Assembly (NCBI GenBank): GCA_034780895.1
Contig: JAUZTB010000076.1
Coordinates: 76,310,293-76,374,292, forward strand
From: Rhynchobatus australiae
Taxonomy: Eukaryota
Length of the DNA: 64,000 nucleotides
Reading direction: 5' to 3'
Made by a program: the position numbers. The first letter of the stretch is position 1, and every line of letters begins with the position of its first letter. Shown here piece after piece: positions 4,701 through 38,300 of the stretch.

Positions 4701-7700
4701 GCTAGTTGAGCTGCCACCTCACAGCTTTAGTGACCGGGTTCAATCCTGACCTCCACTCCTGTCTGTGGGATGCTTACACGTTCTCCCACCACAAAAGACA
4801 TATGGGTTGGTAGGTTAATAGTCCATTGTAAATTGCCACTAGTCTGTGCCAGTGAGGGAAATGTAGGGAGAGTAAATTGGGATGGTGTAAATGCTGCTTG
4901 ATGGTCAGAGATCACCAGGTGGGCTGAGGAGCCTATTTCTGTGAATATAGAATAGAACATAGAGCAGCAAAGCACAAGAAGAGGTTCTTCAATCCATTCT
5001 GTCTGTGCTGCCAAACTAATCCCATCTGCCTGCATGTTGTCCCTATCCCTCCATTCCCTGCCTGTTCAGGTGCCTGTCCTAATGCCTCTTAAATGTTGCT
5101 ATTGTAACATGCTCTGTGACTATGACTCTTAACTTTATGGGCGACCCAGAAGCCTACCATTAATTGGCACTGTGTGCTAATATTGGAGGGAATGAATGTT
5201 TAGGGTGGTGGACAGAGTGCTAATCAAGTGGGCCGCTGTTTCTGGTGTTGAGCTTCTTGAGCGTTGTTGGGGCTGCACTCAAACAGGTGAGCACGGAGTA
5301 TTTCATCATGATCCTGATGTGTCGTACGGATGGTGAGAAGGCTCTGGGGTGGCAGGAGGCGAGTCACCACCTCTGACCTGTTTTTGAAGCTGGGATAAAT
5401 AAGTTAAGCTTCTGGTCACCTGTGACCCCCATGATTTTGATGCTGAGGGTGTTGATTGTGGTGCAGTCATCAGTAAACATCTCCATTCCTGATTAAGTTG
5501 GAATGAATGTCACTGATGAATAAAGGAGCTTTAGATGGTTGGACCTCCACCACCTCCCTGAGGAATTCCTGCGATGATATCCTGGGGCTTTGATGAATGA
5601 CCAACAACCACAACCATCTTCCCTTGTGCGAGGTCTGACAAAGGCTGTTATAGAGTGTTTGCCCTTGGCTACCAATTGACCTTGGTTTGACCAGGACCCC
5701 TCGCTGTGACACATGGGCAAATGCTGCCTTGATGCCAAGGGCAGACACTGGCCCCTGACAGCTGGAACTCAGCTCACTGCTCCAGCTTTGGACCAAGGCT
5801 GTGACAAAGTCGGGGTTCCTGGCGAAGCCCACACCCGGGGCACTGGTGCGGCGCAAGTGGCGACACGTAGCACCGTCCACGATGACTGGCAGGAGATGAG
5901 CGGCGGTGCAGGACTGGGTTTGGCCGCCTGCCGTTTTGCAGCCTGCCCACTGGAGGTCGCTGTTGGCGCCATATCGCCACCTGGCGGCGCCCGGGGCCGC
6001 CTGCAAGCCGGAGCGCCGCTCGGGAGCCGGGAAGGGCGAGAGAGAGACGGAGCCACCGGGCTGGCCCCGGGCACTGACAGTCGGTGGCAGCGCCGCCACC
6101 CGGGCTCGCCCACGACGCGGCGGCTGTGCTCGGTCGATTGGGCGCCTGCAGGAGCGGGTGTCTGCGGGTGTGGGACCATCCGCCGGGCAGCTGTCGGAGG
6201 GAGAGGGGCGGGGCGGGGGGTGTGAGCAATGGACCTTGAGAAAATCTGCGGGAGCCGCTGGGAGGGAGGGAGTTAGTGAGCGGGGGGCCGGACTCGACCC
6301 GCCTGTGGCCACCACCTCACACTTTACCTCGGCTGTAGCCTCGATCCTAAACACCACCACCCCCACCCCCAACCCAAACTGGACCCTCAGTCCTCCTTTC
6401 TGTCCCATTCCCAACCCTGATCCCGTCCACAACCATCCCAGTCCCAGGGTCCATTCCTCATCCCAACCCTGTCCCACATATCAATCCTCACCCCGAGCCT
6501 ATCCCCAATTTCGTTCCCCGTCCAAGACCGTCACACTCCCAATTCCCATTCCCGATCCTCATCCCGGTCGGAATTGTGTTCCGAGCCTTTAATCTCAGTT
6601 CCCGTCCTTAACCCGTCCCAGGTCACTCGTTACTGAATCCCCTTTTGCCTCAATGGGTACTAACATCGTGCTGGAGTGGCTAAAGAGCCTGAAGTTGGCT
6701 CAGTACGGTGAATCCTTCTTGGACAACGGCTACGATGACCTGGAGGTCTGTAAACAGATTGGGGAGCCAGATCTGGACGCTATTGGGGTTGAGAGTCCCG
6801 GGCACCGTCATCTCATCAAAGCGGCTGTAGCCCGGCTCCGGGAGGAGGAGGAAACCGGCGCGGTGGTCTACTTCACTTTGGAGCCGTGGGCTGGAGCCCT
6901 TTGCCAGCCCTACATTTATGCCAAGCTGAAGGAATGCCAGCCTCGGCTCAGGACCCTGCTGTGGAGGAGAACCCGAGGCGCCAGTAGGGAAATGCAGAAT
7001 GCCATGGGATCGAAAAGGAGAGCAGGCCATAAGAAGAGGGTAATTTGTTCCAAACTCATGTTGAAGATCAAAGAAAAGCGGCGGCGGAGCGGCAGTTATT
7101 TGCGGAAATTTCCTTATTACAACAAGGTGGGTGATGAGGTGGGAAAGGAGTCTTAAGTGACTATGTTTTGTGAGGATAGCTGCGGGTGCCAACATAACAA
7201 GTGCAACAGAGTAGGTTACCCCTAAAGGCGGACTGATCAGTGAAGGTTGTTATAAGGTGGTGAGAGTGTTTTTATCTTTTTACATGGGCTGTAGAATGGG
7301 ATGTACATTTAGAGGGGCATGACCCCGTGGAGAGATGGCTGTATTGTGTGGAGCAGCCACATAAGAATATTCTGAACTGTACTCACGATGAGCAGATGGG
7401 AGTTACAGTTCTGTGGGAATGTGACTCTTCTTCAAAAGATACAGGAATCTGTAAGGTACTTCTACGTAACAATGTACAAATTTGTCTTGTGTTTGAAGTT
7501 CTGTGGGCATTTGTAGGAAATACAGGAGATTGTCCAGCAATTGACTGTACTACAATGCAGAAGGAATATATGGGTAGGTCCAGCCAGATAGAAATACAAA
7601 ATGCTGCTCAGCAATTAAATGTACACAGAATATAGGGATGCAATGAGTTCTGCATAGCAAGATATGAAATAGGAGCAGGGCGAGCCCATTTGGCCCTTCA

Positions 7701-35300: not shown

Positions 35301-38300
35301 GTATAAAAATGCCCTGCCTGGTCTTATTTCGTGTTTGTTCCTTTAGATACATGCACAGTACCGAAGGTTTTTTTTAATGACCACTGTTCAGATTTTCTTA
35401 CCAATCTTATTTTGGTATTAAGTAGGAGGATTACAGGTGTGGAAACATGCAAGTTACATTCAAACACAGTGGTGAGATTGGTACAATCTCTTCACAATTG
35501 ACGTCTCAATCTTCTGTTTCAATGTTAAATGTTCAAAGGCAAAGATGCTGCCTGAGCTATAGGGGATGATTTGAAAAGGAAGAATATGGCCTGCTGGAGA
35601 AAAAAATAGTTCATCAAAACTATTGGTGGAAAGTGACACTAAGTTGTGATAGTGGTGAGACGTTTAGGGAAATCGAAGATGATGTATGTTGAAAAGTTAT
35701 TTAGTGAATGAAGTGTGGGTTTAGTCCCCATTAACTTCCACAGGAGTGAATTGATGTTTGGCATTTGGAAATTATTTCATTGTATTATTTATTCATCAGC
35801 ATTATTTAAGGGTGAAATAGAACGTCTTAGAATCGTACCACAGAGGACGCTGATCATGCAGATGCTAACTTTCTGAGTAAACCATCTAATTTGTACCATC
35901 CCCCTCTTCATTTCACAGCCTTGCATTTTTTTTTGGAGATTACGAGAGGCTGCAGATGCTGGAATCTGGAGAAAAACAGAACAAAAGCTGGAGGAACTCA
36001 GCGGGTCGGGCAGCGTCTGTGGAGAGAAATGGACAGTCTGGATCCGAAACGTCGACTGTCCATTTCCCTCTGTAGACGCTGCCTGACCCGCTGAGTCCTC
36101 CCGGCGCTTTGTGTGTTGCCTGCAATTTTTTTTCAAGTATGTTCGATTTGTCTTCTGAAAGTAAACATGGAGTTTAACTCCACCACCCCTTCAGCACCTT
36201 CCGGATCGCAACTTGCTGCAGGAGAGGAATTCTCTCCATCTCTCTCGTGTTCTCTTTTTGCCAGTTATCTCAAGTCCGCGCCCTCTGCTTCTGCCAGGTT
36301 CTCCCTGTAACTTCGTGCATTCTTTCCGCTCCCCTATTTCATCATTTCCAACGTTGCGGAGGAGATTAACCGGATGAATTGTGCCTGATTTTTCTCCTTC
36401 CGTGCGCCGGAGTCTCGCAGCTTCGGGGGTGCACGGCCGGGCTCCTGAGCCGCCACAGTTCTGTTGCGATGCGGTGGCTGTGAGTAACTGTGCCCCATTA
36501 ATACCCGGCCAAACAGATGCACCGCTCCGCACACACGGTGATTGTTCTCCGGCGGCGTCTGACATCAGAGCCGCTGGTGTGGGAGGGGTGGGGAGGAAGG
36601 AGGCGGGAGAGCCCATTCCCTCCCGGAGCCGGGGTTCGCCCGTGGACCCGTGACCACCGCTCCCCAACCCACGCCTGAGGCGGACGCTGTTGTCGAGAGC
36701 AACGCGGTGGGCGCGCCCACCCCGCCGAGCAGAGCCGCCGTCTGGGACCGGGCTGACCTGCGGTGACAGGCTGGCGAGAGTTGATCCGGCCTCCCCGTTC
36801 TCCCTGTGTTTCCCGGCCGGCGGTGGACTCTCCCAGACATCTGGCCAAGTGCTGAACAAACTTTTGGGAGAGAGGACTTGCGGGAGCAGTGACAGGCGCT
36901 CGGTGCCCCCGGCGACGCTGCGGGAAGGGCGGCTCGATCCCTGGAGTCGTTCCGTTGCAAGACGGGGGCTGCCCGCCCCTCGGTCCTGCCCAGCATCTCC
37001 CACCCTTGGGGTGGGGTGAAACCGGCCGGGATTGAGCGAGGGATGGCAAGGAGCTTCGGAGGGGCGTGATCCGGTCGGACGGCGCCCCCGCGGAACCTCG
37101 GCCGCAAGCTGCTGGCGATCGGCGGGCCATGGAGGAAGACGCGGGCGCTGTCTGCGAGCCCCGGTCCCCCTCGGCCGGCCTGCCCGAAGCCTTCTGCACC
37201 CTCTGGAGCGACGTAATGGGAATGCTGGTGAGTTGTGCGGGGGAAGGAGGAGGAGGGGGGGGGGGTGAGCTTGCCATTTAGGAAGCTTCGGTTGTGCTGA
37301 GACTTCAGTAAAAGGGCATAAACAAACCAAAGGAAATCGAGTCAGGAAGCCAGGAATCCTCTAAGGTAATCTCCAGAATCTGCACCAGCGCCGTTTCCTA
37401 TCCCACTCGTTATTTCACTTCGTTGATTACTCGAGTTTTTCGAGAAAAGGTTCCGATTTACCTCTTACCAGGGGTCAGATTTGAGATCATCCTGGTATGG
37501 GACAGCGTGGCTACCGTCAGTTCAAGCGGAGTTGAGGCAGCGAGCGAACTGTTAACAACGAGCTCTGATGAGCATCGTCAGTAATCTCCAGACGCTGATG
37601 CATCGAAGCAAAGTTTGAGCACGTCAGGTACCTGATGCATTCTGCGTTCTCAATACTGTAGTTTGCATTCTGTTTTATGTTACTACTTCGATGTGATTGT
37701 GTATGGGATGATCTGCCCGGGTGGCACGCAAAACAAAAGCTTTTCACTGTATCTCGGTACATGTGACGATGATAAACCAATACCATTGTTCCAGTGTGTC
37801 CAGGTATTCATAGTGTTAATACAGCCAGTCCCAGTGTGCTATCTAATGCAATGGTTATTAATAGATTGAATGTGTTCGTGCATCTGTCACACTGTTGTCA
37901 CTTGTTTGAGGCTTGTTCAGGTTGATTCAGGGGTAAGTATTGGAGGGGAATACAGGGGAATCTATTGGTGTTCTTTGAAGTTGTGCTATGGAAACTTTTG
38001 CGTTCACCTGAGAGAGCACACTTGGTTTGTAGCTAACATAGGCTTCTCTGACAGTGGAGATAAAGTAATGGGCATTGAGTGCATTTCTGATATCCAGTGG
38101 CTTGTTACAAATGTTCAGTGTAAGTGCACTTGGATATCTCTCACTATTCCTCCTGATCAACTGTGTTTGAGGATCTCTGTGTTACAGATGGTTTGAGAAT
38201 TTCCCGGTATCTCTCACGCTTTCACTAGCAGTCATAAAATCGTAAGAATTTACAACATTGAAAGAGGCCACTCTGCCCCTCCTATCCATGCTGAACAAAA

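What the first reader, a model, noticed from the sequence alone, without database searches (positions are those of the whole stretch)
6653..37227. SAMD5-like 'gene' may be an alternative first exon of a SASH-family gene: three phase-0 first exons
Seen: the SAMD5-like exon (6653-7126), the ATG|GTAAGT exon (ending 34953) and the SASH1-type exon (37129-37227) are co-oriented, each follows a CpG-rich region, and all end in phase 0. No convincing private exon 2 for SAMD5 is evident. Established: SAMD5 lies upstream of SASH1 in vertebrates, and SASH1 continues DGSLGNIDDLA after this exon. Inference: one transcription unit with promoter-selected N-termini (extra SAM domain, bare Met, or the EAFxxLWxDVMG helix) spliced to a common exon 2 beyond the window.
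[Added by the scan's program, not by the reader: the finding's places include an assembly gap (unread letters, written N; its length is only estimated) at 14043 to 14142, 17162 to 17463, 18702 to 18951, 20781 to 20880, 30601 to 30610. Whether the letters on both sides are continuous or in frame is not known: test that first.]
Basis: partly seen in the sequence, partly recalled or inferred. Interest (0 to 1): 0.75.

Follow-up and report, generated by a model that had tools for sequence, protein, structure and literature searches.

The report
SAMD5-type alternative first exon of SASH1
In this ray-like fish genome the small "SAMD5" coding block sits just upstream of the scaffold gene SASH1 and most likely serves as one of three alternative first exons of SASH1, an arrangement that gene catalogues of related species already record.

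Summary
None is interrupted by an assembly gap.

- **Exon 1a (6653-7126):** a SAMD5-type SAM-domain exon, 98% identical to the N-terminus of Pristis pectinata "SASH1a isoform X2". In that protein it joins directly to DGSLGHIDDLA, the start of SASH1 exon 2.
- **Exon 1c (37129-37227):** the canonical SASH1 first coding exon.
- **Exon 1b (ends 34953):** homologous to the first coding exon of Hemitrygon akajei SASH1a X2 (E 8e-8). The 37-codon reading frame of that model is out of phase here, so only the terminal ATG fits.

Of the 120 best longer relatives of exon 1a, 113 show a SAMD5-type SAM domain followed by DGSLG. They come from sharks, bony fishes, amphibians, reptiles and birds; a capuchin monkey model from a separate search has the same junction.

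A conserved private SAMD5 exon 2 appears only in mammals, and none is found here. SASH1 exon 2 is not in the window.

It is already known at annotation level. In human tumour papers the same junction is called a "SAMD5-SASH1 fusion".

The parts
5801..6400 (.). CpG island ahead of exon 1a; presumed distal (SAMD5-type) promoter
   Evidence: GC 0.70-0.72 and CpG observed/expected 0.74-0.89 in 400-bp windows. The promoter role is inferred; there are no transcript data.
6653..7126 (+). Exon 1a: a SAMD5-type first coding exon of 158 codons, with a SAM domain at residues 4-63 and a basic linker. Donor AAG|GTGGGT, phase 0.
   Evidence: Sequence and translation. Pfam SAM_1 E 7e-16. Best solved structure is 5ZRZ_B, the SAMD5 SAM domain, E 2.2e-26. 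It is 98% identical over 100% of its length to the N-terminus of Pristis SASH1a X2.
7127..7156 (+). Intron read-through tail VGDEVGKES followed by TAA. If the donor is not used, this gives a 167-residue stand-alone SAMD5-like protein.
   Evidence: Window sequence. The Mobula SAMD5-like model P0003 ends with the same nine residues. Nearest poly(A)-signal-like hexamers are ATTAAA at 7614 and 8269 and AATAAA at 9525; whether any is used is unknown.
34820..34953 (+). Exon 1b: a third alternative 5' exon. The 5' end is uncertain; 34820 is only an acceptor-like site, TCCCTCTTCAG|TGG. Donor ATG|GTAAGT. ATGs lie at 34838 (phase 2 at the donor), 34843 (MDF then a stop) and 34951 (phase 0, Met only).
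   Evidence: tblastn of Hemitrygon akajei SASH1a X2 residues 1-29 to 34838-34924: 55% identity, E 8e-8.
36201..37128 (.). CpG island and 5' leader of canonical SASH1 exon 1
   Evidence: GC 0.648 and CpG observed/expected 0.87 over 36200-37128. Island windows span 36201-37400.
37129..37227 (+). Exon 1c: the canonical SASH1 first coding exon, 33 codons containing EAFCTLWSDVMGML. Donor CTG|GTGAGT, phase 0. Start context GCCATGG.
   Evidence: All 7 cartilaginous-fish SASH1 N-termini of this type hit here, with E from 1.3e-17 to 3.1e-5.
37228..64000 (+). Start of the shared first intron, at least 26.8 kb. SASH1 exon 2 (DGSLGH...) is not found in it.
   Evidence: tblastn of P0123, P0124 and P0126, and of the first 80 residues of nine SASH1 proteins, gave no exon-2 hit. 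Four gaps (43928-44027, 45466-45565, 52242-52258, 54121-54184) could hide a short exon.

Best explanation
The window holds the 5' end of one SASH1 transcription unit of a batoid fish. It has three alternative first exons, all on the + strand. Each ends in phase 0 and is spliced to a common exon 2 (DGSLGHIDDLA...) that lies beyond the window.

**Exon 1a.** The distal promoter, a CpG island at about 5.8-6.4 kb, drives exon 1a. This exon puts a SAMD5-type SAM domain and a basic linker in front of the SASH1 body. The result is a SASH1 isoform with three SAM domains.

**Exon 1c.** The proximal CpG-island promoter drives exon 1c and gives the canonical N-terminus (EAFxxLWxDVMGxL).

**Exon 1b.** This exon lies 2.2 kb upstream of 1c and acts mainly as an alternative leader. 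In this species only its last three bases (ATG) can open the SASH1 frame.

**Stand-alone SAMD5-like protein.** If the 7126 donor is not used, the transcript reads nine codons into the intron and stops. That yields a small stand-alone protein.

**What is shown and what is inferred.** Shown: exon sequences, phases, donor sites, and orthology to annotated isoforms with exact junctions. Inferred: use of the junctions in this species, the promoters, and the function. The inferred function is that the extra SAM domain links the SASH1 scaffold to Eph-receptor SAM domains.
For: **Exon 1a joins SASH1 exon 2 in relatives.** Exon 1a is 98% identical to residues 1-158 of Pristis SASH1a X2, and there residue 158 (K) is followed at once by DGSLGHIDDLA. 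Amblyraja and Chiloscyllium show the same junction.

**The junction is widespread.** Of the 120 best 'longer' relatives listed, out of 912 with E<=0.001, 113 have a SAMD5-type SAM domain followed by the DGSLG motif. Ninety-two of them read YSNK|DGSLGN. The remaining 7 are carp proteins with the same N-terminus whose motif my pattern missed. By their source names these models come from several annotation pipelines and span sharks, rays, teleosts, bichir, sturgeon, gar, amphibians, squamates, turtles and birds. A primate, Sapajus apella X5, reads PPYSRK|DGSLGN.

**The other two exons also have orthologous models.** Exon 1c matches the N-terminus of Mobula SASH1-like X1 and six other cartilaginous-fish SASH1 proteins. 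Exon 1b matches the N-terminus of Hemitrygon SASH1a X2 (E 8e-8).

**No conserved private exon 2 outside mammals.**
- Among 120 short SAMD5 models, the tail VPMAGILEYLMNWPKSSQNR occurs in 20, all named mammals.
- In 7 of the 120 my pattern found no junction.
- The other 93 tails are dissimilar across lineages.
- 57 of those 93 begin with V, as expected when a GT donor is read through.
- The Mobula stand-alone model ends with the window's own intron read-through.

**Transcript evidence in humans.** Spliced SAMD5 exon 1 to SASH1 exon 2 in-frame transcripts are reported, with RT-PCR or Sanger checks according to the text. The papers are PMC5352057, PMC7653769, PMC6489307 and PMC13429291 (passages read).

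**Basis for the functional inference.** The SAMD5 SAM domain binds the SAM domains of EphA5-8 and EphB1-4, and Tyr27 and Asp40 are key contacts (PMC5993539, passages). Both residues are present in the window's exon.
Against: - There is no RNA evidence for this species. Everything rests on predicted models of relatives, and annotation pipelines can copy such models from one species to another.
- Stand-alone SAMD5-like models exist in Mobula, Mustelus and Carcharodon.
- Part of the Carcharodon tail weakly matches 8646-8729, just after a CAG (E 0.002). A private terminal exon is therefore not excluded.
- Five assembly gaps separate exon 1a from 1b, so order and orientation are not proven within this assembly.
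- Exon 1b lacks a clear CpG island and carries two upstream ATGs, and its donor motif is chance level on its own.
- Exon 2 was not found in the window, so the common acceptor cannot be inspected.
Confidence: 0.75

Rival explanations
1. Two separate genes. On this view SAMD5-like is an independent small gene that ends by intron read-through or in a private terminal exon. The SAMD5-SASH1 models are then low-level read-through chimeras or artefacts that annotation pipelines have spread.
For: - Short stand-alone models exist: 687 proteins of 86-277 aa with E<=0.001 among 729 candidates.
- Three of them are from elasmobranchs.
- Mammals have a conserved private tail, seen in 20 of the 120 listed.
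- The human genes are treated as separate and lie 772 kb apart (PMC5352057).
- A weak match of the Carcharodon tail falls at 8646-8729 (E 0.002).
Against: - Outside mammals the private tails are not conserved, and 57 of 93 look like donor read-through.
- The exon always ends in phase 0 on K, compatible with SASH1 exon 2 (113 of 120).
- The fused form is modelled in many vertebrate classes.
- Exon 1a lies only about 30 kb from SASH1 exon 1c here.
Confidence: 0.2
2. Exon 1b is not a functional coding first exon in this species. It would be a non-coding leader or internal 5'UTR exon, entered through the acceptor-like site at 34819/34820, or a decaying exon. No protein would start with its 'bare Met'.
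For: - The ORF homologous to the Hemitrygon 37-codon N-terminus starts at 34838 and is 116 nt long, so it is out of phase.
- The ATG at 34843 has a good context and stops after 3 codons.
- The ATG at 34951 has C at position -3.
- There is no clear CpG island.
- ATGGTAAGT is expected by chance.
Against: - The exon is conserved against Hemitrygon (E 8e-8) and keeps a consensus GTAAGT donor.
- The terminal ATG is in phase 0.
- A one-base error in a draft assembly could also explain the frame difference.
Confidence: 0.4
3. Scaffolding artefact. The contig carrying exon 1a would be misplaced or inverted, so the apparent 30-kb co-oriented arrangement would not be real.
For: Five gaps lie between exons 1a and 1b, and I found no way to test continuity across them.
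Against: - In Mobula, Carcharodon and Mustelus the SAMD5-like and SASH1 proteins are reported from contigs of the same length: 170,995,155, 239,769,335 and 103,825,946 bp.
- The Pristis fused model requires a co-oriented arrangement on one contig.
Confidence: 0.05

Closest known systems
Pristis pectinata 'SAM and SH3 domain-containing protein 1a isoform X2' (P0123, 1267 aa). Like models exist in Amblyraja radiata, Rhinoraja longicauda, Chiloscyllium plagiosum, Rhincodon typus and Scyliorhinus canicula.
   Same: The N-terminal 158 residues are 98% identical to exon 1a, and the exon end (...YYNK) is the same. The model then continues directly with SASH1 exon 2. Pfam finds SAM, SPIDER, SH3 and SAM domains.
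   Different: It is a predicted model from another species. The window holds only the first exon, so the junction itself cannot be seen here.
Human 'SAMD5-SASH1 (SAMD5::SASH1) fusion' transcripts reported in chordoma, neuroblastoma, grade I meningioma and a BCOR-ITD CNS tumour
   Same: This is an in-frame join of SAMD5 exon 1 to SASH1 exon 2 (PMC5352057, passages). That is the junction predicted here and modelled in the capuchin P0306.
   Different: - In the passages read, the papers call it a tumour gene fusion, not a normal isoform.
- The human genes are 772 kb apart, against about 30 kb here.
- The RT-PCR figures are in supplements that I could not see.
Mammalian stand-alone SAMD5 (about 170-190 aa)
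   Same: It has the same SAM domain, and the best solved structure for exon 1a is 5ZRZ_B. It also has the same linker ending ...PPYS(N/R)K.
   Different: Mammals add a conserved private tail, VPMAGILEYLMNWPKSSQNR (20 of the 120 listed). The window has no counterpart. The best hit, E 0.22 at 30390-30419, is a 17-codon ORF between stops next to a 35-bp repeat, and I rejected it.
Hemitrygon akajei SASH1a isoform X2 (P0243)
   Same: Its first coding exon is homologous to 34838-34924 (E 8e-8) and ends ...HM|DGSLGH, like the window's ...CACATG|GT.
   Different: There a 37-codon ORF (111 nt) is in frame. Here the corresponding ORF is 116 nt and out of phase.

Membership tests
[quoted passage not shown] | N-terminal SAM domain closest to the SAMD5 SAM domain | tested here: met
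   Pfam SAM_1 E 7e-16, residues 4-63. The best PDB chain is 5ZRZ_B, SAMD5, at E 2.2e-26; next comes the SHIP2 SAM domain at 1.3e-19, and the SASH1 SAM domain scores only 6.7e-7.
[quoted passage not shown] | Eph-SAM contact residues Tyr27 and Asp40 (PMC5993539) | tested here: met
   Residues 27 and 40 of P0001 are Y and D. Their role is taken from passages of the paper. Binding itself was not tested.
[quoted passage not shown] | Private terminal exon with the conserved mammalian tail | tested here: not met
   There is no credible match in the window. The tail is seen only in 20 named mammals among the 120 listed.
SASH1 (SLy family: SASH1, SASH3, SAMSN1) 5' end | Canonical first coding exon with (E/D)xFxx(L/F)WxDxMGxL, ending in phase 0 | tested here: met
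   37129-37227. All 7 cartilaginous-fish N-termini of this type match it, and each continues with DGSLG.
SASH1 (SLy family: SASH1, SASH3, SAMSN1) 5' end | Exon 2 (DGSLG.IDDLAQQY...) and the SPIDER, SH3 and SAM body downstream | tested here: not met
   Not present in 37228-64000. It presumably lies beyond the window or in one of its gaps, and the body cannot be examined here.
Alternative-first-exon (multi-promoter) transcription unit | All first exons use one common acceptor | not testable with these tools
   There are no RNA data and exon 2 is outside the window. Orthologous models show the common junction for each of the three exon types.
Alternative-first-exon (multi-promoter) transcription unit | Each first exon has its own promoter | tested here: inconclusive
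   CpG islands lie ahead of exons 1a and 1c. Ahead of 1b there is only a borderline 200-bp patch. An acceptor-like site at 34819/34820 leaves open that 1b is an internal exon.

The most novel reading that the evidence does not exclude
SAMD5 would not be an independent gene ancestrally. It would be the most distal alternative first exon of SASH1, conserved since the common ancestor of jawed vertebrates, and it would produce a three-SAM SASH1 isoform that docks the scaffold onto Eph-receptor SAM domains.

On this reading the stand-alone SAMD5 protein is a by-product of donor read-through in most vertebrates. It would have become a properly terminated gene only in mammals, through a new private exon.

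The recurrent 'SAMD5::SASH1 fusion' of human tumour RNA-seq would then be this physiological isoform rather than a somatic rearrangement.

In the papers I searched and the passages I read, I found no statement of this view.
Probability: 0.5. Interest if true: 0.55.

Novelty: already known. Interest (0 to 1): 0.3.

Why it matters
For this genome the result is an annotation point. The SAMD5-like block should be modelled as part of the SASH1 locus, as isoform-specific exon 1, and not only as a separate one-exon gene.

More widely, the same exon 1 to exon 2 junction appears in gene models from sharks to birds and in a monkey. This suggests that the 'SAMD5-SASH1 fusion' reported as a tumour marker in humans may be a normal, ancient isoform. 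That would change how such RNA-seq calls are read.

It also gives a testable link between SASH1 scaffolding and Eph-receptor signalling.

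Tried and rejected
- **SASH1 exon 2 in the window.** tblastn of three full SASH1 proteins and of nine N-terminal 80-residue pieces found none.
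- **Mammalian-type private SAMD5 exon 2.** The best hit, at 30390-30419 (E 0.22), is a 17-codon ORF between stops beside a 35-bp repeat. I rejected it as chance.
- **Candidate private exon at 8649-8825.** It matches the Carcharodon tail at E 0.002, sits after a CAG, has a weak pyrimidine tract and has no Pfam match. It stays open and is not adopted.
- **Carcharodon's other alternative N-terminus (P0248) and the mammalian MEH...M| exon (P0287, P0326).** Neither has a counterpart in the window.
- **Isoform lists of the Pristis and Amblyraja clusters.** I therefore could not check whether a model starting M|DGSLG exists in Pristis.
- **Other genes in the window.**
  - Among 68 stop-to-stop ORFs of at least 110 aa, only the SAMD5-type ORF matched known proteins. 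I tested four other stretches against Pfam: three of those ORFs and the 8649-8825 candidate. None gave a hit.
  - Rfam gave 0 matches.
- **Internal duplication.** The idea that the SAMD5 SAM domain is a recent copy of SASH1's own SAM domain is not favoured. Identity to SASH1 SAM1 is only 35-37%, and the solved SAM domains of SHIP2, Caskin and ANKS1 score better than that of SASH1.
- **Continuity across the five gaps.** I found no test for it.
- **Joined model.** I did not build or search a spliced model of the window's exons. Each exon was searched on its own.
- **Closed sources.** Paper supplements were closed, including the RT-PCR figure of PMC5352057 and the fusion figures of PMC7653769.

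Full report
**What is in the sequence**

- **Exon 1a.** An ORF starts at the ATG at 6653, the first ATG after an in-frame stop at 6590-6592. It runs 474 nt to AAG|GTGGGT at 7126/7127, which is 158 codons ending in phase 0.
- **Exon 1c.** The ATG at 37129, in a GCCATGG context, opens 33 codons (MEEDAGAVCEPRSPSAGLPEAFCTLWSDVMGML). They end CTG|GTGAGT at 37227/37228, in phase 0.
- **Exon 1b.** The sequence reads CACATG|GTAAGT at 34951-34959.
- All three exons are on the + strand.
- The window has eleven N runs, and none lies inside an exon.
- Exons 1b and 1c share one uninterrupted stretch, 30611-43927.
- Exon 1a lies in 3484-14042, and five gaps separate it from 1b. No reading frame crosses a gap. 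However, the order, orientation and 27.8-kb spacing of exon 1a relative to the others rest on scaffolding that I could not test. I did not fill any N.

**Is it more than chance?**

- Exons 1a and 1c match known proteins strongly (see the next section), so they are clearly more than chance.
- The 9-mer ATGGTAAGT occurs once in the window, but 55 of 100 shuffles give at least one match. Motif and phase alone therefore say nothing for exon 1b.
- Clear CpG islands lie at 5801-6400 and 36201-37400.
- Ahead of 34953 the CpG observed/expected ratio is 0.47-0.54. One 200-bp patch is borderline, at 0.76 with GC 0.537.

**Identity of the exons**

*Exon 1a.*
- It carries a SAM domain (Pfam SAM_1, E 7e-16).
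- Its best solved relative is the SAMD5 SAM domain in 5ZRZ_B (E 2.2e-26).
- Among proteins of similar length, 687 of 729 candidates had E<=0.001. The best is Mobula birostris 'SAMD5-like' at 93% identity, followed by two sharks at 74% and then tetrapod and fish SAMD5 at about 45-51%. The window is therefore from a batoid fish and is not human.
- Among longer proteins, 912 of 1353 candidates had E<=0.001. The best is Pristis pectinata 'SASH1a isoform X2' (1267 aa) at 98% identity over the whole exon, then Amblyraja radiata and Rhinoraja longicauda at 91%.
- In these proteins the exon's last residue is followed at once by DGSLGHIDDLAQQ. The Pristis protein continues with SPIDER, SH3 and SAM domains.

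*Exon 1c.*
- I searched with residues 159-460 of the Pristis protein, the SASH1 body.
- I then inspected the N-termini of 14 of the 120 listed proteins: the nine cartilaginous-fish proteins not seen before and five long mammalian ones.
- Seven of the nine cartilaginous-fish proteins start with the canonical exon. Mobula, for example, reads MEEDTAAVCEPRSPSADLPEAFCTLWSDVMGML|DGSLGH.
- All seven hit 37129-37227 by tblastn, with E from 1.3e-17 to 3.1e-5.

*Exon 1b.*
- Hemitrygon akajei SASH1a X2 starts MKWASNPGLKGLQAHALYFTAQRRADTTFYPCQMLHM|DGSLGH.
- Its residues 1-29 match 34838-34924 (MQWTSNPGLKGLQVHTRHPAAHRKTSSTF) with E 8e-8.
- Exon 1b is thus a real, conserved alternative 5' exon of SASH1.

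**The detail of exon 1b**

- In the window the homologous ORF starts at 34838 and is 116 nt long, so it reaches the donor in phase 2. In Hemitrygon it is 111 nt and in phase 0.
- The ATG at 34843 lies 111 nt from the exon end but meets a stop at its fourth codon.
- Only the ATG at 34951 is open and in phase 0.
It sits behind two upstream ATGs and has C at position -3.
- A one-base error in this draft assembly could also account for the frame difference.
- An acceptor-like site (TCCCTCTTCAG|TGG at 34819/34820) leaves open that 1b is an internal leader exon rather than a first exon.

**How general is the SAMD5-to-SASH1 junction?**

- Of the 120 listed longer relatives of exon 1a, 113 have the SAMD5-type SAM domain followed by the DGSLG motif within 400 residues. 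Ninety-two of them read YSNK|DGSLGN.
- The other 7 are carp proteins with the same N-terminus whose motif my pattern did not catch.
- By their source names they include sharks, rays, teleosts, bichir, sturgeon and paddlefish, gar, bowfin, frogs, lizards, snakes, turtles and birds. They come from several annotation sources.
- A primate model, Sapajus apella SASH1 X5, has the same join, PPYSRK|DGSLGN.
- These are predicted models, and pipelines can copy them from species to species, so they are not independent observations.

**Is there a private SAMD5 exon 2?**

- I looked at the tails after the conserved ...K in the 120 listed short SAMD5 models.
- Twenty, all named mammals, share VPMAGILEYLMNWPKSSQNR.
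- In 7 my pattern found no junction.
- The other 93 tails show no similarity across lineages. Fifty-seven of them begin with V, which is what reading through a GT donor gives. One continues with DGSLG.
- The Mobula stand-alone model ends VGDEVGKES. That is exactly the window's intron read-through at 7127-7153, followed by TAA.
- The mammalian tail has no credible match in the window. The best, E 0.22 at 30390-30419, is a 17-codon ORF between stops beside a 35-bp repeat.
- One weak candidate remains. Part of the Carcharodon tail matches 8646-8729, just after a CAG (E 0.002). The pyrimidine tract is poor and there is no Pfam match.

**Exon 2**

No match to the DGSLG exon or to any later part of SASH1 was found in 37228-64000. 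The first intron is therefore at least 26.8 kb, unless a short exon hides in one of the four gaps of that stretch.

**Most likely mechanism**

- This is one SASH1 transcription unit with three alternative 5' exons joined to a common exon 2.
- Exon 1a adds a third SAM domain, exon 1c gives the canonical N-terminus, and exon 1b is mostly a leader.
- If the 7126 donor is skipped, a 167-residue stand-alone SAMD5-like protein results.
- The exon sequences, phases, donors and orthology are shown. Use of the junctions in this species and the promoters are inferred.
- For function, the SAMD5 SAM domain binds the SAM domains of EphA5-8 and EphB1-4, with Tyr27 and Asp40 as key contacts (PMC5993539, passages read). 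Both residues are kept here.
- The three-SAM isoform may therefore tether the SASH1 scaffold to Eph receptors. This is inference.
- The SAMD5 SAM domain is not a recent copy of SASH1's own SAM domain. Identity to SASH1 SAM1 is 35-37%, and the SAM domains of SHIP2, Caskin and ANKS1 score better in the PDB search.

**Comparison with what is known**

- The arrangement is already recorded in public annotation for the closest relatives and many other vertebrates. The finding is correct but not new.
- A full-text search for SAMD5 with SASH1 found 31 papers, and 'SAMD5-SASH1' found 6.
- The passages I read describe an in-frame SAMD5 exon 1 to SASH1 exon 2 'fusion' in several tumour types:
  - four chordoma cases, with no copy-number change and the genes 772 kb apart (PMC5352057);
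  - 3 of 48 neuroblastoma transcriptomes (PMC7653769);
  - four grade I meningiomas (PMC6489307);
  - one CNS tumour (PMC13429291).
- Other papers only cite these reports.
- None of the passages read treats the transcript as a normal isoform.
- Searches for SASH1 with 'alternative promoter' (9 papers by listing) and for SAMD5, SASH1 and 'chimeric' (4 papers by listing) showed no title or abstract on the subject.
- I saw only listings and passages, not whole papers or supplements. The claim that this view is not in print is limited accordingly.

**What I could not do**

- No vertebrate DNA collection or RNA data could be searched.
- The metagenome and viral collections and the paper supplements were closed.
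- I searched the window's exons one by one and made no joined model.

**Verdict**

The novelty is low, because the arrangement is already annotated. There is a modestly interesting side reading for the human 'fusion' literature.

Noticed in passing
window 40124-43647: A satellite array with a 197-bp period (also scored at 387 bp), about 18 copies at roughly 68% match, inside the presumed first intron of SASH1.
   Followed up: no
window 19781-20036 and 30075-30270: Two degenerate arrays of a related 35-bp unit (TGTGTAAATGTGACAGTGTCTCA...-like) lie 10 kb apart in the 1a-1b interval. The second sits next to the gap at 30601-30610.
   Followed up: partly
window 347-679 (-), 18549-18701 (+), 16980-17161 (-), 21110-21574 (-), 28661-29041 (+): These are repeat-derived ORF fragments. 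Two share the peptide string HAHNFL...REPEHREETHA, and three resemble one another (..FFSQRVV..LWNSLP.. type tails). They are probably SINE and LINE remnants. The two tested against Pfam gave no match.
   Followed up: partly
window 8646-8729 (+): A weak protein-level match (E 0.002, 48% over 33 residues with a 5-residue gap) to the tail of the Carcharodon carcharias SAMD5-like model, just after a CAG. It could be a conserved alternative terminal exon or a conserved non-coding stretch.
   Followed up: partly
proteins P0287 and P0326 (horse and leopard cat SASH1 models), not in the window: Mammalian SASH1 models have another short alternative first exon, MEH(L/F)AREAEFWS..M|DGSLG. Like exon 1b, it ends on Met in phase 0. 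It has no detectable match in the window.
   Followed up: partly
window 32253-32312: A perfect (AC)30 microsatellite.
   Followed up: no
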